Shown here: piece after piece, positions 20,498-27,313 of the stretch
How positions within the stretch are numbered: position 1 is the stretch's first letter
Layout: each line of letters starts with the position of its first letter
Origin: a virus
Lineage: Duplodnaviria > Heunggongvirae > Uroviricota > Caudoviricetes
Strand: one strand, 5' to 3'
IMG/VR virus record: IMGVR_UViG_2660238683_000003
Location: 1 to 27,426 of that record
DNA: 27,426 nucleotides
Notes under the pieces: model-generated
Seen by the model: the letters and a program-made list of their open reading frames with translations, nothing else
Told to the model about the DNA's origin: nothing
Database searches by the model: none
Program-made: the position numbers and the translations under genes

Positions 20498-21109
20498 TCA
20501 AAGAGAAAAGCTAAAGCCCAGAAGGGAAGCCAAAGAACTTGAGGATTGGTTAAACGTGCTGTGCAATGCGAAGGTCATTGGGAATGACTTAAATTCAGTA
20601 ACCTGATCTCGCGCATAGGTGACATCGCCGGTAGTGACCGGGAATACCGTCATCTCATTTTCCAGTTTGGTTAAGCCGGAAGACAGCAACCGATAAATAC
20701 GCACATTGAGCAAATATTTAGACGGTATATTCCCGGTACCGTCCGGATTGATCACCCGACTTTTTGCCGTCTTAAACCAGTCCAAAACGAGGCCATCAAC
20801 GGTATCCCTGACCATCATTGTTATCTGCCCAGGCGAACGCTCCGTTGGTTGAAGGATATTCCCTCCGCCGATTTTAATCGTTTCATATTCGATGCTGTAA
20901 TCGTGGTAGGTAATATCTTTGGCAAAGAAGTCTGCCCCCTCCAGTCCATCAACTTCGACAGAGAACTGCCATCCTTGCGCGAACAACATTTTGTTCATGA
21001 TGATTGACGTCAGCTTACCGACTTCCCGCTCACCAACGCCGGAGCCAAATAATGTCGTCGTTAATGCCGAAGATACATAAGACTTTACTGAAGCAACATT
21101 AAACCCCAT
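20498..21109 (-). CDS. tub: Tail tube-like structural protein (203 aa)
   Basis: ATG with GAGAGGG SD. Size and position between pmgC-like and pmgB-like genes. Name by synteny only. Confidence 0.45.
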   Translation of the reverse strand: MGFNVASVKSYVSSALTTTLFGSGVGEREVGKLTSIIMNKMLFAQGWQFSVEVDGLEGADFFAKDITYHDYSIEYETIKIGGGNILQPTERSPGQITMMVRDTVDGLVLDWFKTAKSRVINPDGTGNIPSKYLLNVRIYRLLSSGLTKLENEMTVFPVTTGDVTYARDQVTEFKSFPMTFALHSTFNQSSSSLASLLGFSFSL

Positions 21110-21119
21110 ATCAGCCCTC

Positions 21120-21710
<591 letters not shown>

Positions 21711-21840
21711 TTAACCGATTCTACGAGTAGTCATTTGTTCATTGAGTAGGAATATTGTTGTCTGGGGGGTAATCAGTGTAGGTGGAATGAGGGATATGAT
21801 ATGGTTATCACATAATCAGGTTGTTTTGAGTAAAACAATA

Positions 21841-21867
21841 AAACGCCCTTTAATGGGCGTTTTTTTA
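21841..21867. terminator. Bidirectional rho-independent terminator
   Basis: Stem ACGCCC / GGGCGT with loop tttaat, followed by T7 on the plus strand and T-rich sequence on the minus strand. Lies between the end of the sim-like cluster and the tail operon. Confidence 0.6.
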
Positions 21868-21895
21868 AAACTTAAATTAACTATCCTTTCAAATA

Positions 21896-22690
21896 CTATT
21901 TTAATTCTATGTAATTTTTAAATTCTCCCTCATATTTATACATGATGCTATCAAATCCTTCCATTACATCAACGAATTGTTGTGAACATTCCGGCTTCCA
22001 AGGCGTACACTTACGAACCATATCCATTTTATTCTTATCCTTCGTTGTATCGACTAAGGATAGGTACCCTATAAAATTCATCATCTGAACAGGATCTTGA
22101 TTTGTGAATATATATTTGACGTTTTGCTTAGTAGGTGAAAAAGAATCAAAAGCAGGGAACATATATTCACCAGAAAAAGAGAGTGCAGCATCAATGACGT
22201 CTGTTGCTGGAGTGCAGTTGCTCAGAATTGGCACTAAGCTAAAATTAGCACCGGAGCACACTGCATATATATCATCCCCTTTTTTTAGTTTTAACAGAGA
22301 GTCTTGCTTTGAATCCAATATTTTCAATTTGATATAATTTAGTGGCGTTGCATTTTCCCCTGGAGTAAATAACTCTACAATTGGTTTATTATTCACCATT
22401 CTTATGGATTTTATTTCACCATACACAATTGGAATTGTGTTCCATTTTTCCTGAGCAGCAAATTCATTATCTTTAAAATCATTAACCAACTCAGATGGCA
22501 AATGATAACCAAATTGATTGTTCATTGCTTTCGAAGCAAATCCAGACAAATAGAATGCCCTTACTAAATCATAATCTTTCTTTGAGGTAGAAAGCCAATC
22601 TGGCAATTTATTATCAGCTATCGCGCTTCCAGCAAAAATAGCACAACAAAATGTTATTACATTAAATAATTTCATTTTCCATTCACTCAT
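21896..22690 (-). CDS. simC: Exported protein with signal peptide (SimC-like)
   Basis: N-terminus MKLFNVITFCCAIFAGSAIA looks like a Sec signal peptide. Low GC. ATG at 22690 overlaps the upstream stop; the ORF-track start 22708 is GTG. Confidence 0.5.
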   Translation of the reverse strand: MSEWKMKLFNVITFCCAIFAGSAIADNKLPDWLSTSKKDYDLVRAFYLSGFASKAMNNQFGYHLPSELVNDFKDNEFAAQEKWNTIPIVYGEIKSIRMVNNKPIVELFTPGENATPLNYIKLKILDSKQDSLLKLKKGDDIYAVCSGANFSLVPILSNCTPATDVIDAALSFSGEYMFPAFDSFSPTKQNVKYIFTNQDPVQMMNFIGYLSLVDTTKDKNKMDMVRKCTPWKPECSQQFVDVMEGFDSIMYKYEGEFKNYIELK

Positions 22691-23000
22691 TAATCGGTTT
22701 AAACTCACTAATTAATTCACCAAGACTATTTGGGTATGCTTTATAAATAACATACTCCGAAGAGCCATCTGAATATTTGTAAACCCCATAACAGACCAGT
22801 TTACTTATTCCTTTCTGAATAGTTTTTTGATTATAAGAATCAACCACTGTTATTCCATATGACGATAATATTTCGTTATATTCTTCAATAAGAGCTTTTC
22901 TTGTTTCCACTGAATTGCAATCTACCTTCGAAAAGTCAACTTCATCAGCAAAAACATTAAATGTTAAAAAGGAAAGCACTAAAAACAAACGAATCAGCAT
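22683..23000 (-). CDS. simB: Small exported protein (SimB-like), about 105 aa
   Basis: Signal-peptide-like MLIRLFLVLSFLTFNVFA. Start trimmed from 23018 to ATG 23000, which has AGGAG 7 nt upstream. Confidence 0.45.
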   Translation of the reverse strand: MLIRLFLVLSFLTFNVFADEVDFSKVDCNSVETRKALIEEYNEILSSYGITVVDSYNQKTIQKGISKLVCYGVYKYSDGSSEYVIYKAYPNSLGELISEFKPINE

Positions 23001-23021
23001 AAATCCACTCCTACGCATGGA

Positions 23022-23153
23022 TTAATAGTCATTGATCGCAAAGGCGTAAACTTGCCCAAGGTATTTCGTATAATCGGTACAAATCTCCTTTACGCTTGAT
23101 GCTGCATTAACAGTCCCAGCCATAAATAATAACGGTAGTAATAGTTTTCTCAT
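23022..23153 (-). CDS. simA: Small ORF (43 aa) with signal-peptide-like N-terminus (SimA-like); not in the ORF track
   Basis: Hand translation gives MRKLLLPLLFMAGTVNAASSVKEICTDYTKYLGQVYAFAINDY. GGTGAGG SD 5 nt upstream of the ATG. Stop lies 4 nt before the simB-like ORF. Confidence 0.4.
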   Translation of the reverse strand: MRKLLLPLLFMAGTVNAASSVKEICTDYTKYLGQVYAFAINDY

Positions 23154-23248
23154 TATAACCTCACCTGCCTTATAACCCATTTAGGGTACATATTTTCGCC
23201 TTTAAAAAAAGAGGTTATTAGATCCATTTGTGCATTTGTTACACAAAT

Positions 23249-23265
23249 AATGCTCTAATAAATTT
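23249..23265 (+). promoter_or_regulatory. C1-repressor operator-like site (Op51-like) upstream of c4-icd-ant
   Basis: AATGCTCTAATAAATTT matches the asymmetric P1 C1 operator consensus ATTGCTCTAATAAATTT (from memory) at 16 of 17 positions. Confidence 0.55.
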
Positions 23266-23449
23266 GTATTTTTAAGTCGCGAATGCTATCTTTTCGCATC
23301 ATATTGACCTTTTAATCGTTCAGGCTTATAGTTCCGCCGTCGTAGCAAATTCTGCGACCGGGTTTAGCAGCCTGAATGTTAGTGCGGACAACCGCAGATA
23401 TCCGATATTGCGGTATTTTTGTGTCCGTAAAACCGCGTTACGCCCAAAT

Positions 23450-23530
23450 TATGGTGGGGCGTGATGGGGAGGCTTCGGCCTGCTGGTTTCACTAACGCCA
23501 GTCTGCTAACCCCGTCACGTCCTGCCACCT
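23450..23530 (+). ncRNA. c4: c4-like antisense repressor RNA (approximate ends)
   Basis: Segments TCACTAAC (23489-23496) and CTGCTAAC (23503-23510) are complementary to GTTAGTGA (23562-23569, overlapping the icd SD) and TTAGCAG (23533-23539). The same target-like pair recurs upstream at 23363-23384. Confidence 0.45.
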
Positions 23531-23579
23531 GTTTAGCAGCGGGTAGCAGGTTGTTAAACCTGTTAGTGAGGCCGTAACT

Positions 23580-23801
23580 ATGGTTAATGCCAATCCTTGC
23601 GCACGCCAAGAATTCATCTGGCGTTTCTATTCCTGTAAAAAACACCACTATCACTTCGTTATCGCAGCAACTGAAGACGAAGCACGCTCTCAATTGCCTG
23701 ATGGCCCCTGCATTTTTACTGCCCGTTTTTCAACTAACTCGCGCAATTCACTTAGTTACTGGAACCTCCCCTTCTCTGCCGACGTTCAGGGGGTTTTATG
23801 A
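23580..23801 (+). CDS. icd: Icd-like small protein (73 aa), translationally coupled to ant
   Basis: 73-codon ORF whose TGA overlaps the ant1 ATG (ATGA). GAGG SD 9 nt upstream is the c4 target. Matches the P1 icd arrangement as recalled. Confidence 0.6.
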   Translation: MVNANPCARQEFIWRFYSCKKHHYHFVIAATEDEARSQLPDGPCIFTARFSTNSRNSLSYWNLPFSADVQGVL

Positions 23802-24841
23802 AAAAAACTCTCATCACCCGGAATGAAATAGCCGAAGCGATCGCTTTGCATACAACCTGTATGCCGACACGGGAGATCCCCGGCGCAATTGCCAACTATT
23901 TCATGATAACCAGGCGTTTTTATACCCGAACAGATAAGGCTGTGATCAACAGGCTACTGATAACCGAGATCAGGGATTATTTGATTGAACAAGGACGTCT
24001 ACGTTACGCAACAGTGGCAGCAGAAATGAGAAAGGAGGCACATAGAATGACCAGTAATAATTTGAATGTTAAAAAACCAGCATCTGTTGCTTCAGCTACG
24101 CCATCTCCAGCCGTGAATGTCATCCCCAACACCGGAGACACAATCGACAGCCAAACATTGTTGAAGATGGTCAATGAGGCACGTAAGTTATGTGGAGAAC
24201 CAGAGGTTAGAAACAATAAATTCATCGAAAAAATACTCGATGAACTTGAAGGTGAATTTTACACAAAAAGTGCAAAATCCCATGGCACAAGGGCCGGGCG
24301 CTCTTTTGAGGTCATAACCATGACCTATAAACAAGCCCTGCGAGTCGCCGCGCGCGAATCAAAAGCTGTCCGCCGTTCGCTGATCGACAAACTAGAAGAA
24401 TTGCAGCAGGCAAACTCCCCTACTCCATCGATCCCCCAAACATTACCAGAAGCTCTACGCCTGGCCGCCGAGTTGGCAGAACAGAAAATGCAGTTGGAAC
24501 AACAGCTGGTGGCCGCTGCCCCTAAAGTCGATTTTGCCGACCGGGTATCAGTGGCTAATGGAATCCTGATCGGGAACTTTGCAAAGGTCGTTGGGCTTAA
24601 GCAAAACGCCCTTTTCTCATGGTTGCGCCAGAACGGCATTCTCATGGCTTTTGGTGCGCGCAAAAACGTACCGCGCCAGCAGTACATTAACGCCGGGTAT
24701 TTCACGGTGAAAGAAGTGGTGCTGGATGATGAAAATGGCTACCAGATACGGCTGACGCCCCAATTAACGGGTAAAGGCCAGCAGTGGTTAACTCGCAAGC
24801 TACTTGATGCTGGTTTGTTAAAACCAGTAGCAATAGGTTAA
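23798..24841 (+). CDS. ant1: Antirepressor Ant1 (347 aa); probable in-frame Ant2 start at 24047
   Basis: C-terminal roughly 140 aa (PQTLPEALRLAAELAEQK...GKGQQWLTRKLLDAG) is an antirepressor-type (AntA/KilAC-like) domain, also present in the next gene. Internal ATG at 24047 has AAGGAGG 8 nt upstream. Confidence 0.75.
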   Translation: MKKTLITRNEIAEAIALHTTCMPTREIPGAIANYFMITRRFYTRTDKAVINRLLITEIRDYLIEQGRLRYATVAAEMRKEAHRMTSNNLNVKKPASVASATPSPAVNVIPNTGDTIDSQTLLKMVNEARKLCGEPEVRNNKFIEKILDELEGEFYTKSAKSHGTRAGRSFEVITMTYKQALRVAARESKAVRRSLIDKLEELQQANSPTPSIPQTLPEALRLAAELAEQKMQLEQQLVAAAPKVDFADRVSVANGILIGNFAKVVGLKQNALFSWLRQNGILMAFGARKNVPRQQYINAGYFTVKEVVLDDENGYQIRLTPQLTGKGQQWLTRKLLDAGLLKPVAIG

Positions 24842-24853
24842 CAAAAGAAAAAA

Positions 24854-24878
24854 CCTGCCAGCAAACTGGCAGGTTTCT
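24854..24878 (+). terminator. Candidate intrinsic terminator/attenuator after ant
   Basis: Stem CCTGCCAG / CTGGCAGG with loop caaa, followed by only TTT, so weak. Confidence 0.4.
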
Positions 24879-24918
24879 GAGCAGATCGACCAACCCGATC
24901 TGGATCGGACTGGAAAAA

Positions 24919-24935
24919 TTTGCTCTAATAAATTT
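24919..24935 (+). promoter_or_regulatory. C1-repressor operator-like site (Op53-like) upstream of kilA-repL
   Basis: TTTGCTCTAATAAATTT matches the C1 operator consensus at 16 of 17 positions. Second copy of the motif in the window, same orientation, about 70 bp before kilA. Confidence 0.55.
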
Positions 24936-25004
24936 CGTTTTCTAAGTGCAAAGAATCACCATTTCGAGCTGGTGATTGAAGGTTGATGCAAATTTGGAGA
25001 AAAA

Positions 25005-25805
25005 ATGCAACAAACATTCAATGCGGATATGAATATATCAAACCTTCATCAAAATGTCGATCCTTCAACCACTCTGCCTGTTATTTGTGGTGTTGAAATT
25101 ACGACCGACCGCGCTGGCCGTTACAACCTTAATGCTCTACACAGAGCGAGCGGACTCGGTGCCCATAAAGCGCCAGCTCAATGGCTAAGAACGCTGTCAG
25201 CCAAACAGCTCATCGAAGAGCTGGAAAAAGAAACTATGCAGAATTGCATAGTTTCGTTCGAAGGCCGTGGCGGCGGCACTTTTGCCCATGAATTGCTCGC
25301 TGTGGAGTACGCAGGCTGGATTTCTCCCGCGTTTCGGCTGAAGGTAAACCAGACATTTATCGACTATCGAGCCGGAAGATTACAACCTGCTATTCCGCAG
25401 AGTCTCCCTGAAGCTCTCCGTTTGGCTGCCGACCTGGCAGAGCAAAAGCAACGGCTGGAGCAAAAAATGCTTCTGGATGCCCCTAAAGTCGAATTTGCCG
25501 AACGCGTTGCTACCGCCAGCGGGGTTCTAATCGGCAACTATGCCAAAGTGCTCGGCCTGGGCCAAAACTATCTCTTCACCTGGTTGCGTGATAACGGAAT
25601 TCTGATCGCAACCGGTGAGCGCAGGAACGTCCCAAAACAAGAATACATATCCCGTGGGTATTTCACCCTCAAAGAAACCGTGATCGATACAAGCAATGGA
25701 AGCAGGATTTCTTTCACGACTCGTATAACCGGCAAAGGTCAGCAGTGGCTGATGAAGCGATTGCTTGATGCTGGTGTGCTGGTACCTGTCGCGGCAACGC
25801 GCTAA
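25005..25805 (+). CDS. kilA: KilA protein (KilA-N domain plus antirepressor-type C-terminal domain), 266 aa
   Basis: N-terminal KilA-N-like segment (GRYNLNALHRASG...). C-terminal domain paralogous to the Ant C-terminus. GGAG SD 6 nt upstream. Confidence 0.7.
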   Translation: MQQTFNADMNISNLHQNVDPSTTLPVICGVEITTDRAGRYNLNALHRASGLGAHKAPAQWLRTLSAKQLIEELEKETMQNCIVSFEGRGGGTFAHELLAVEYAGWISPAFRLKVNQTFIDYRAGRLQPAIPQSLPEALRLAADLAEQKQRLEQKMLLDAPKVEFAERVATASGVLIGNYAKVLGLGQNYLFTWLRDNGILIATGERRNVPKQEYISRGYFTLKETVIDTSNGSRISFTTRITGKGQQWLMKRLLDAGVLVPVAATR

Positions 25806-25834
25806 CAGACGTAGTAAGAACCACCAGCATTGTA

Positions 25835-26680
25835 ATGCTGGCTAAAGTCACTTTCCTGAGCTGTATAACGATGAGCGATTTTACTTTTTCTGGCTATGAA
25901 TTGGCCTGCTTTGTAACACACTCCGGTCTATCCCGTAGCGCCGGGTATATCCTGTCGCAATGTGCAAATCTCGCGGCTACAACCAGTGAATACTTCATTC
26001 ACAAGCCTCACCGCCTGATCGCGGCAGAAACTGGTTATAGTCAATCAACCGTCGTTCGTGTATTCCGTGAAGCTGTAAACAAAGGAATCCTGTCTGTAGA
26101 GATTGTTATCGGCGATCACCGTGAACGCCGCGCTAACCTGTACCGGTTTACACCATCCTTTTTGGCCTTCGCACAACAAGCTAAAAACGCGCTGACTGAA
26201 AGCAAATTAAAGATCTCTTCAGCCGCAACCAAGGTTAAAGCTGTTCTCGCTAAGACATTGGCTTTATTTGATTTTTTATCCACACCCCCATGTCAAAATG
26301 ATACCCCCTCCCCCTGTCAGGATGACGTGGCAATAAAGAATAAGAAGTCACAAGTTAAAAAAACAAAAAGATCAGTTTCCGGCGGTGCCGGAACGACCAG
26401 ACTCAAAAAATTGACTTCATGGATCGCTGAGGCAAAAGCAAAGGCTGACAATCTGCGGTTATCCAAAAAACGCGCTCAAAAACATGAGTTCAAGCAGAAA
26501 GTAGAGGCTGCTGCGCGGAAATATGCTTACCTGAAGAACAAGCGTTCGCCTGATATTGGCGGGATATCAAACTTCGATAATCTGCCGCATTGCATGACAG
26601 TAAACGAAGCTCTTAATGCGGTTTTAGCCAAAAATAAAGATAACGAACAATGGGGTATACCGGCAGGATTCAGAGGGTGA
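25835..26680 (+). CDS. repL: RepL-like lytic replication initiator (281 aa)
   Basis: HTH-like segment ETGYSQSTVVRVFREAVNKGIL. Position directly after kilA as in the P1 kilA-repL operon. Start uncertain (ATG 25835 or 25871). Confidence 0.6.
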   Translation: MLAKVTFLSCITMSDFTFSGYELACFVTHSGLSRSAGYILSQCANLAATTSEYFIHKPHRLIAAETGYSQSTVVRVFREAVNKGILSVEIVIGDHRERRANLYRFTPSFLAFAQQAKNALTESKLKISSAATKVKAVLAKTLALFDFLSTPPCQNDTPSPCQDDVAIKNKKSQVKKTKRSVSGGAGTTRLKKLTSWIAEAKAKADNLRLSKKRAQKHEFKQKVEAAARKYAYLKNKRSPDIGGISNFDNLPHCMTVNEALNAVLAKNKDNEQWGIPAGFRG

Positions 26681-26730
26681 TAGATTGCTCTAATCTGGAG
26701 TCACCTGGCGTTTTCAGTTTGAGGTCGGAG

Positions 26731-26976
26731 ATGCAATCTGATTTTTTACAGTTAGCGATCGCTTTTACAGGATATGTTTGCATTGGCTTCTGTGTATACA
26801 TGATCAGCCGAAAAATGCTTGTCGATATCGACCGCAAAGAACGAGCAGAGGAAATCTTAGTATGGATTTTCTTTGGCGCGGTCTGGCCATTAGGGATCAT
26901 GTTTGCTGCAACGTTTCTTCTGATGTGGATATTCACCATTCCAGGTGATTTATATAGAAAAAAAGCCAGACATTGA
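26731..26976 (+). CDS. Small membrane protein (about 81 aa, two predicted TM helices)
   Basis: Hydrophobic stretches LAIAFTGYVCIGFCVYMI and ILVWIFFGAVWPLGIMFAATFLLMWIF. ATG 26731 has GAGG upstream. The ORF-track start 26650 overlaps repL. Confidence 0.4.
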   Translation: MQSDFLQLAIAFTGYVCIGFCVYMISRKMLVDIDRKERAEEILVWIFFGAVWPLGIMFAATFLLMWIFTIPGDLYRKKARH

Positions 26977-27099
26977 TACAATCGCTGCGGGTGCTTGAGG
27001 CTATCTGCTTCAGGCATTACCCGAAAAGCAGACAGAAGAAAGCCCCAGATAACATTACGCGTCCTGCAAGACGCTTAACATTAATCTGAGGCCATATCT

Positions 27100-27306
27100 A
27101 TGCTTAGCATACGTAGATTAGCCTCTTACCGACCAAAAGGTCAAGGAGAAGCAGGCTATGAAGCAGCAAAAAGCGATGTTAATCGCTCTGATCGTCATCT
27201 GTTTAACCGTCATTGTGACGGTACTGGTAACGAGGAAAGACCTCTGCGAGGTACGAATCCGAACCGGCCAGACGGAGGTCACTGTCTTCACAGCCTACGA
27301 ATCTGA
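27100..27306 (+). CDS. mok: mok-like overlapping reading frame (modulator of killing)
   Basis: ORF that starts upstream of hok and overlaps almost all of it in another frame, as in hok/mok/sok loci. Confidence 0.35.
   Translation: MLSIRRLASYRPKGQGEAGYEAAKSDVNRSDRHLFNRHCDGTGNEERPLRGTNPNRPDGGHCLHSLRI
27110..27145 (-). promoter_or_regulatory. Candidate sok-like antisense promoter
   Basis: On the minus strand: -35 TTGACC (27144-27139), 18-bp spacer, -10 TAATCT (27120-27115). The transcript would run antisense across the mok start and hok leader. Confidence 0.3.
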
Positions 27307-27313
27307 AAGGTAA
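27158..27313 (+). CDS. hok: Hok/Gef-family type I toxin (51 aa)
   Basis: MKQQKAMLIALIVICLTVIVTVLVTRKDLCEVRIRTGQTEVTVFTAYESER is near-identical in pattern to E. coli HokD/RelF as recalled. AAGGAG SD upstream. Confidence 0.85.
   Translation: MKQQKAMLIALIVICLTVIVTVLVTRKDLCEVRIRTGQTEVTVFTAYESER

What the first reader, a model, noticed from the sequence alone, without database searches (positions are those of the whole stretch)
23203..23280. C1-operator-like site upstream of the immI operon, possibly paired with a degenerate inverted copy
AATGCTCTAATAAATTT (23249-23265) matches the asymmetric C1 operator consensus at 16 of 17 positions. A weaker inverse-orientation relative (reverse complement of 23206-23222, about 12 of 17) lies 27 bp upstream. 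The downstream TTTGTATTTTTAAGT is echoed at the second operator (TTTCGTTTTCTAAGT), suggesting a shared operator-promoter unit. A local palindrome CATTTGT-N3-ACAAAT sits between them.
Basis: partly seen in the sequence, partly recalled or inferred. Interest (0 to 1): 0.4.

Follow-up and report, generated by a model that had tools for sequence, protein, structure and literature searches.

The report
Known P1 repressor operator Op51
The flagged site is the long-known binding site (Op51/Oc4) where the phage P1 master repressor C1 shuts off one promoter of the antirepressor (immI) operon, sitting in a P1-like phage-plasmid; the proposed second, inverted copy is no better than chance.

Summary
The window is a P1-like phage-plasmid segment, 97.4% identical to P1 and 99.5% to E. 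fergusonii plasmid pRHB31-C17_2. AATGCTCTAATAAATTT at 23249-23265 is base-for-base the P1 operator annotated as "monovalent C1-controlled operator Oc4 (former Op51)". It overlaps the -35 of promoter P51a/P2c4, upstream of c4 RNA, icd and ant1/2. Operator positions 3-17 are invariant in 82 of 82 related loci. The closest complete relative encodes a C1 repressor 280/283 identical to P1 C1.

The second site, 24919-24935, is Op53/OrepL.

The "degenerate inverted copy" is mis-registered. It matches 6/17 at the stated coordinates and 12/17 only at 23211-23227. It scores 7.65 bits, where about 11 such hits are expected per window. Its TCTAAT is the predicted -10 of the divergent sim promoter.

The palindrome and a better inverted hit (23220-23236, 12.8 bits) lie in a 23-bp spacer. 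That spacer is the most variable stretch locally (26 alleles in 62 loci), so neither is conserved.

The downstream "echo" is real, but it is a T-rich flank shared by most P1 C1 operators.

Verdict: already known and ordinary. Side observations are a fast-evolving spacer and homology breaks at operators.

The parts
23249..23265 (+). C1 repressor operator Op51 (= Oc4), monovalent, AATGCTCTAATAAATTT
   Evidence: It has 1 mismatch to the consensus and scores 24.3 bits with a matrix trained without it. It is identical to, and homologous with, AF234172 48140-48156, 'monovalent C1-controlled operator Oc4; former Op51'. Positions 3-17 are invariant in 82/82 loci found with an anchor outside the operator.
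23263..23292 (+). Promoter P51a (= P2c4): -35 TTTGTAT at 23263-23269, -10 TATCTT at 23287-23292. The -35 overlaps the operator by 3 bp, so this is the C1-repressible promoter.
   Evidence: Transferred from the P1 annotation (L001 2165-2194). The stretch is 100% identical to P1. The simple consensus scan did not pick it up.
23304..23332 (+). Promoter P51b (= P1c4): TTGACC-17-TATAGT, outside the operator
   Evidence: P1 annotation. Found independently by the consensus scan with 10/12 matches.
23211..23227 (-). It is a chance-level operator resemblance. Its TCTAAT (23217-23222) is the predicted -10 of the divergent promoter PsimA.
   Evidence: Register and match counts are. It scores 7.65 bits and ranks 14th in the window. 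PsimA -10 is annotated at L001 2119-2124 (-). Positions 23211-23225 lie in the invariant block.
23220..23236 (-). Best inverted operator-like hit (AATGCACAAATGGATCT, 12.8 bits). It is allele-specific and probably non-functional. It has A at operator position 8, where all 20 annotated P1 operators have T.
   Evidence: Third best hit in the window. Local chance is about 0.013 per 80 bp. The homologous sequence scores from -0.3 to 12.8 bits in relatives, and -0.3 in P1 itself.
23226..23248 (.). Fast-evolving 23-bp spacer between the sim leader block and the operator. It contains the palindrome ATTTGT-TAC-ACAAAT (23234-23248) and the predicted -35 of PsimA (23238-23243).
   Evidence: It differs from P1 at 5 of 23 positions, while the flanks are 97-100% identical. 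14/23 sites are polymorphic, with 26 alleles in 62 loci. Nucleotide diversity (pi) is 0.20, against 0.05-0.09 at fourfold-degenerate sites of icd and ant1.
23181..23225 (.). Nearly invariant block: sim leader and -10 region, with an A7/A8 run-length polymorphism
   Evidence: 0 segregating sites in 24 aligned loci. Only singletons appear in the larger set. The block is retained even where the sim genes are replaced (L012, L034).
23022..23180 (-). simA, first gene of the divergently transcribed simABC superimmunity cassette
   Evidence: ORF list and P1 annotation.
23326..23378 (+). a1/b1 target sites of the C4 antisense RNA in the immI leader
   Evidence: Rfam RF03163, 55.5 bits against a gathering score of 46.7.
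23447..23532 (+). C4 antisense RNA gene
   Evidence: Rfam RF01695, 70 bits against a gathering score of 45. P1 annotation.
23580..24841 (+). icd (23580-23801) and ant1/ant2 (23798-24841), the genes controlled from P51a/P51b
   Evidence: ORF list and P1 annotation at 97% identity.
24919..24935 (+). C1 operator Op53 (= OrepL), covering the -10 of PkilA/P53. This is the 'second operator' of the finding.
   Evidence: 21.4 bits.

Best explanation
The site at 23249-23265 is the P1 operator Op51 (renamed Oc4) in a P1-like phage-plasmid. One C1 repressor molecule binds the asymmetric 17-bp sequence. The last 3 bp of the operator are the first 3 bp of the -35 element of promoter P51a (P2c4), so bound C1 blocks RNA polymerase there. 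This lowers transcription of c4-icd-ant1/2 in the lysogen. The downstream promoter P51b lies outside the operator and still supplies C4 antisense RNA, which blocks icd/ant translation. The site stands alone, that is, it is monovalent.

The upstream 'inverted copy' is not a C1 site. It is the conserved -10/leader region of the divergent sim promoter, whose TCTAATAA happens to resemble the operator core. The palindrome lies in an unconstrained 23-bp spacer and is peculiar to this allele.

Shown here: sequence identity and homologous position with the annotated P1 and P7 operators; invariance of the operator across relatives; presence of a near-identical C1 in the closest complete relative; chance-level statistics and non-conservation of the extra features.

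Inferred from the P1 annotation and literature: physical binding by C1, repression of P51a, and constitutive activity of P51b.
For: - The window is P1-like: 97.4% identical to P1 over 22600-24900 and 99.5% to plasmid NZ_CP057257 over 25 kb.
- The operator plus 88 bp downstream, covering both promoters, is identical to P1. The P1 record annotates exactly this 17-mer as 'monovalent C1-controlled operator Oc4; former Op51; controls expression of c4', with P2c4 (P51a) -35 overlapping it and P1c4 (P51b) downstream. P7 carries the same annotation.
- The site scores 24.3 bits with a matrix trained without it, against a 12.8-bit next-best hit. It is one of 2 near-consensus sites where 0.17 are expected.
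- TGCTCTAATAAATTT is invariant in 82/82 loci recovered with an anchor outside the operator, while the adjacent 23 bp show 26 alleles.
- The closest complete relative contains the exact 120-bp region, a C1 protein 280/283 identical to P1 C1.100, and about 19 high-scoring operators at P1-like positions.
- c4 RNA and its targets follow the operator.
- Literature: C1 binds about 22 dispersed operators with consensus ATTGCTCTAATAAATTT (PMC8546580). C1 represses the operon containing c4, icd and ant1/2 (PMC8198154).
- Against a second site.
Against: - No binding or expression experiment exists for this particular element.
- c1 is not inside the window, so the cognate repressor is inferred from a 99.5%-identical plasmid.
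- The primary papers on Op51/P51a/P51b and the P1 genome paper could not be read here. The statement that P51b is constitutive therefore rests on my recollection of the Schuster-laboratory papers plus the geometry in the GenBank annotation.
- The inverted 12.8-bit hit at 23220-23236 has only about a 1% local chance probability. A weak auxiliary contact in this allele is therefore not strictly excluded.
Confidence: 0.93

Rival explanations
1. Op51 works together with a weak inverted auxiliary C1 site (23220-23236, or the reader's 23211-23227). The pair would form a divergent two-site operator that strengthens repression of P51a and also puts the divergent sim promoter under C1 control.
For: - 23220-23236 (-) is the third best matrix hit in the whole window at 12.8 bits. 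It differs from the real operator Oc1a at only 3 positions, and its local chance is about 0.013.
- P1 does use very weak half-sites inside bivalent operators: Oc1b scores 6.2 bits.
- The five substitutions relative to P1 make this allele more operator-like.
- Both candidates overlap the predicted PsimA -10/-35.
Against: - The candidate was found post hoc.
- It has A at position 8, where all 20 annotated P1 operators have T.
- Its score is below every annotated stand-alone operator (minimum 14.8).
- The homologous sequence scores from -0.3 to 12.8 bits in relatives and lies in the least conserved stretch.
- The geometry (5' ends facing, 12- or 21-bp gap) matches no annotated P1 operator pair.
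- P1 and P7 annotators call the site monovalent.
Confidence: 0.06
2. The match is a fortuitous AT-rich sequence with no repressor function in this element, for example because the element has lost or changed its C1.
For: c1 is not in the window, and no experiment has been done on this element.
Against: - The 17-mer is identical to P1 in an identical promoter context.
- It is invariant in 82/82 relatives next to a highly variable spacer.
- The closest complete relative encodes a 99%-identical C1 and a full operator set.
- The motif is strongly over-represented: 21 sites >=14 bits in P1, where fewer than 3 per genome are expected even at the looser 12.8-bit cut-off (extrapolated from 0.83 per 27-kb window).
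Confidence: 0.01

Closest known systems
Phage P1 operator Op51 / Oc4 (AF234172 48140-48156) with promoters P51a (P2c4) and P51b (P1c4)
   Same: The 17-mer, the position relative to simA and c4, and both promoters are identical. The sequence is 100% identical from the operator through 23336.
   Different: The 23 bp immediately upstream differ from P1 at 5 positions, and one A is missing from the A-run at 23204-23210. Nothing differs in the operator itself.
Phage P7 operator Op(c4) (AF503408 50853-50869)
   Same: Same role and the same core TGCTCTAATAAATTT, followed by the same promoters and c4.
   Different: P7-type elements have T/C/A and C at operator positions 1-2. Their upstream DNA is unrelated: membrane and lipoprotein genes instead of sim. 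Homology with the window starts at operator position 3.
P1 operator Op53 / OrepL (window 24919-24935)
   Same: Same repressor, 15/17 identical operator, same orientation, similar T-rich downstream flank ending in TAAGT.
   Different: Op53 contains the -10 of P53/PkilA. Op51 abuts the -35 of P51a. The two are not copies of one operator-promoter cassette.
P1 bivalent operators Op72ab (Obanab) and Op99ab (Oc1ab), and the pair Op86a/b
   Same: They show that C1 can use two inverted 17-mers, one of them degenerate (Oc1b scores 6.2 bits).
   Different: In bivalent operators the two 17-mers overlap by 6 bp at their AT-rich 3' ends. Op86a/b are convergent and 32 bp apart. The candidate pair here is divergent (5' ends facing), and no operator-like sequence lies at the bivalent register (-1.1 bits).

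Membership tests
P1-type C1 repressor operator (monovalent) | Asymmetric 17-bp sequence matching ATTGCTCTAATAAATTT | tested here: met
   16/17 match. It scores 24.3 bits with a matrix from 18 other P1 operators, within the 14.8-26.3 range of annotated stand-alone operators. It is identical to P1 Op51.
P1-type C1 repressor operator (monovalent) | Overlaps or abuts a sigma-70 promoter so that bound repressor excludes RNA polymerase | tested here: met
   The operator's 3' end overlaps the -35 (23263-23269) of P51a/P2c4 by 3 bp. The promoter is taken from the P1 annotation and is 100% identical. The promoter itself was not detected by the simple consensus scan.
P1-type C1 repressor operator (monovalent) | The replicon encodes the cognate C1 repressor | tested here: inconclusive
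   c1 is not inside the 27-kb window. The closest complete relative (NZ_CP057257, 99.5% identical, with an exact copy of 23181-23300) encodes C1 that is 280/283 identical to P1 C1.100.
P1-type C1 repressor operator (monovalent) | Physical binding by C1 and C1-dependent repression | not testable with these tools
   This rests on the experimental annotation of the identical P1 site and on the literature summary in PMC8198154.
P1-type C1 repressor operator (monovalent) | Conserved at the homologous position in related elements | tested here: met
   Positions 3-17 are identical in 82/82 IMG/VR loci recovered with an anchor 38 bp outside the operator.
P1 bivalent (two-site) C1 operator | A second 17-mer in inverted orientation overlapping the first by 6 bp at the 3' ends (as in Op72ab and Op99ab) | tested here: not met
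   The minus-strand 17-mer at that register (23260-23276) scores -1.1 bits.
P1 bivalent (two-site) C1 operator | The second site is recognisably operator-like beyond chance and is conserved | tested here: not met
   23211-23227 scores 7.65 bits, which is chance level. 23220-23236 scores 12.8 bits in this allele but from -0.3 to 12.8 in relatives.
immI operon of P1/P7 | C4 antisense RNA with a1/b1 targets, followed by icd and ant1/ant2 | tested here: met
   Rfam C4 at 70 bits and c4-a1b1 at 55.5 bits, both above gathering scores. The icd and ant1 ORFs are at the homologous positions with 97% DNA identity.

The most novel reading that the evidence does not exclude
The 23-bp spacer just upstream of Op51, and a 5-bp spacer upstream of Op53, may evolve faster than neighbouring synonymous sites because they are under diversifying selection or recurrent rearrangement. 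They could act as tuning knobs for the C1-controlled promoters P51a, PsimA and P53. Alternatively they could be scars of repeated recombination at operators that serve as module boundaries. In this window's allele the turnover has created a weak inverted C1 half-site (23220-23236) that could couple the sim promoter to C1.
Probability: 0.1. Interest if true: 0.35.

Novelty: already known. Interest (0 to 1): 0.1.

Why it matters
As a finding it re-identifies a textbook regulatory site. Op51 is the point where the master repressor C1 of phage P1 controls the antirepressor operon and so links the immC and immI immunity circuits. Its value here is in annotation. It shows that this widespread P1-like phage-plasmid keeps the P1 immunity wiring intact, with the operator core invariant across 82 relatives.

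The side observations matter only modestly. A sharply bounded fast-evolving spacer sits next to an invariant operator, and homology breaks fall exactly at or inside C1 operators. These hint at how cargo such as sim or hok/sok is swapped next to fixed regulatory signals in phage-plasmids that also carry resistance genes.

Tried and rejected
1. The primary literature was not available. The P1 genome paper (PMC523184 and its DOI) and Heinrich 1994 (PMC196329) are not held. Full-text searches for Op51, P51a, P51b and Oc4 returned nothing relevant. I relied on the GenBank annotations and two open papers.

2. The simple promoter scan found P51b but neither P51a nor PsimA. Those two rest on the P1 annotation only.

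3. I tested whether homology breakpoints between P1 and the closest plasmid cluster at operators. Four of 30 HSP ends lie within 30 bp of an operator centre, against 0.35 expected under a uniform null (P about 0.0004). I reject this as evidence. Breakpoints and operators are both confined to intergenic DNA. On my rough estimate that intergenic DNA is about 9 kb of P1, about 4 coincidences would be expected under an intergenic null. That estimate was not computed.

4. I considered a small ORF, a terminator or a hairpin in 23181-23248. By eye I saw no ORF with a plausible ribosome-binding-site spacing. The scan found no terminator-like site.

5. I considered that the spacer's diversity simply reflects deep divergence of the sim side. 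I reject this, because P1 and the window have 99-100% identical sim genes and leader yet differ at 5/23 spacer positions. Whether the rate truly exceeds neutral remains uncertain: 23 sites, pi 0.20 against 0.05-0.09.

Full report
WHAT THE WINDOW IS. The region 22600-24900 is 97.4% identical to phage P1 (AF234172 47490-49791) and matches P7 and many P1-like phages. Many plasmids of Escherichia, Salmonella and Klebsiella match 21000-27426, though only about 130 cover most of that stretch. The best complete relative is E. fergusonii plasmid pRHB31-C17_2 (NZ_CP057257), 99.5% identical over 25 kb. The gene order around the finding is simC-simB-simA on the minus strand, then on the plus strand c4, icd, ant1/2, kilA and repL.

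THE OBSERVATION.
- AATGCTCTAATAAATTT lies at 23249-23265 with one mismatch to the C1 consensus. The only other site with <=3 mismatches is 24919-24935. That is 2 sites against 0.17 expected.
- I extracted the 20 C1 operators annotated in the P1 record. I built a weight matrix without the two operators present in the window. They score 24.3 and 21.4 bits, and the next hit scores 12.8.
- The inverted copy is mis-registered. The stated coordinates give 6/17 matches. The 12/17 match is at 23211-23227 on the minus strand.
- That resemblance is at chance level. There are 17 sites with >=12/17 matches in the window against 12.2 +/- 4 simulated. It scores 7.65 bits, with 14 such hits against 10.8 expected, and the local probability is 0.13.
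- The palindrome is ATTTGT-TAC-ACAAAT.
- The echo TTTGTATTTTTAAGT / TTTCGTTTTCTAAGT matches at 11/15 positions.

WHAT IT IS.
- The alignment with P1 shows the operator and the next 88 bp are identical.
- P1 annotates this 17-mer as 'monovalent C1-controlled operator Oc4; corresponds to former Op51; controls expression of c4'.
- The -35 of P2c4 (former P51a) overlaps its 3' end. In window coordinates the -35 is 23263-23269 and the -10 is 23287-23292.
- P1c4 (former P51b) lies further downstream at 23304-23332. The consensus scan finds P51b independently as TTGACC-17-TATAGT.
- P7 carries the equivalent annotated operator.
- Rfam finds the C4 antisense RNA (70 bits) and its a1/b1 targets (55.5 bits) just downstream.
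- The second site is Op53/OrepL, which contains the -10 of PkilA/P53.

CONSERVATION.
- A first scan of IMG/VR used a pattern that included the operator. It gave 56 loci of three upstream types: sim, P7-like and a third type.
- To avoid circularity I rescanned with the P51b sequence, which lies 38 bp outside the operator. All 82 loci carry TGCTCTAATAAATTT, and only operator positions 1-2 vary.
- Among 62 sim-type loci, the 55 bp from the operator to P51b hold 5 polymorphic sites.
- The 45-bp block 23181-23225 is essentially invariant.
- The 23 bp between that block and the operator (23226-23248) hold 14 polymorphic sites and 26 alleles. The window's allele is a singleton in that set. It is nevertheless present exactly in NZ_CP057257.
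- Diversity in the spacer is pi 0.20, against 0.05-0.09 at fourfold sites of icd and ant1.
- P1 and the window have 99-100% identical sim genes and leader, yet only 78% identity in the spacer.

CONSEQUENCES FOR THE EXTRA FEATURES.
- The palindrome and the best inverted operator-like hit (23220-23236, 12.8 bits) lie in this unconstrained spacer. The same positions score from -0.3 to 12.8 bits in relatives, and -0.3 in P1.
Its operator-like part, TCTAATAA, coincides with the predicted -10 of the divergent promoter PsimA.
- The invariant block is kept even where the sim genes are replaced from about the first three codons of simA onward, as in L012 and L034. This fits a promoter/leader role rather than repressor binding.
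- No operator-like sequence lies at the register used by the P1 bivalent operators (-1.1 bits).

THE DOWNSTREAM ECHO.
- Aligning the flanks of all annotated P1 operators shows that most carry a T-tract at +4 to +8 (59 of 80 bases are T) followed by A-A-G. G at +11 occurs in 10 of 16.
- The Oc4/OrepL pair shares 8/12 flank positions. That ranks 17th of 120 pairs, where the mean is 5.2.
- The echo is therefore a family-wide flank, not a duplicated operator-promoter unit. The two operators also sit differently relative to their promoters.

THE REPRESSOR AND THE REGULON. c1 is not in the window. The closest complete relative encodes C1 that is 280/283 identical to P1 C1.100. It also has about 19 sites of at least 14.8 bits at P1-like positions. 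P1 itself has 21 sites >=14 bits. By extrapolation from the simulated windows, fewer than 3 would be expected by chance even at the looser 12.8-bit cut-off. The motif is therefore far from randomly distributed.

MECHANISM.
- One C1 molecule on the asymmetric 17-mer occludes the -35 of P51a and reduces c4-icd-ant transcription.
- P51b remains free and supplies C4 RNA, which blocks icd/ant translation.
- Open papers support the general picture. C1 binds about 22 dispersed operators with this consensus, aided by Lxc (PMC8546580). C1 represses the operon containing c4, icd and ant1/2 (PMC8198154).
- That P51b is constitutive is my recollection of the Schuster-laboratory papers, which I could not read here.

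VERDICT. The main site is real, functional by strong homology, and already known. The paired inverted copy and the shared-unit idea are not supported. Interest is low. The side observations are listed separately.

Noticed in passing
window 23226-23248: A sharply bounded, fast-evolving 23-bp spacer lies between an invariant 45-bp sim-leader block and the invariant operator. 14/23 sites are polymorphic, with 26 alleles in 62 loci. Diversity is pi 0.20, against 0.05-0.09 at neighbouring fourfold sites. P1 and the window differ here at 5/23 positions although their sim genes are 99-100% identical. Several alleles contain operator fragments (ATTGCAC, ATGC).
   Followed up: partly
window 24908-24912: A second variable mini-patch lies in the P53 spacer upstream of Op53. 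It is 5 nt (GACTG here, GGTCA in P1) between GATCG and GAAAAA. It shows 8 alleles among 22 distinct haplotypes in an otherwise nearly invariant 180 bp.
   Followed up: partly
P1 record AF234172 (L001-L003), flanks of all annotated C1 operators: Most P1 C1 operators share an extended downstream flank beyond the 17-bp consensus. It has a T-tract at +4 to +8 (74% T) followed by AAG, with G at +11 in 10 of 16. Many also have an A-rich upstream flank. This suggests a longer contact or a bending region.
   Followed up: partly
window 26684-26694 and 26989-27163: Just after repL only the left half of operator Op55/Orlf survives (ATTGCTCTAAT). Homology with P1 breaks exactly inside the operator. P1's rlfA/rlfB are replaced by other DNA that includes a hok/sok toxin-antitoxin locus (Rfam sok, 111.5 bits; hokD is annotated in relatives).
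   Followed up: partly
L005-L009, L060 (P7-type loci), about 25 bp upstream of the operator; L012 and L034: Homology between sim-type, P7-type and a third upstream type starts at operator position 3. P7-type loci carry ATTGCAC-GA-CACTAAT just upstream, which looks like a split operator left half. In L012 and L034 the sim genes are replaced from about the first three codons of simA, while the promoter/leader block is kept. A test for breakpoint-operator association was significant only against a uniform null.
   Followed up: partly
window 7503-9189: Two cargo genes absent from P1 sit between the tail-fibre and lysis genes. In the near-identical plasmid NZ_CP057257 they are annotated as a DapH/DapD/GlmU-related acetyltransferase and a lipopolysaccharide N-acetylglucosaminyltransferase.
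   Followed up: no
window 23204-23210: The A-run in the sim leader is A7 here and A8 in P1. Both lengths recur among relatives. It is the only recurrent (non-singleton) variation in the otherwise nearly invariant block.
   Followed up: no
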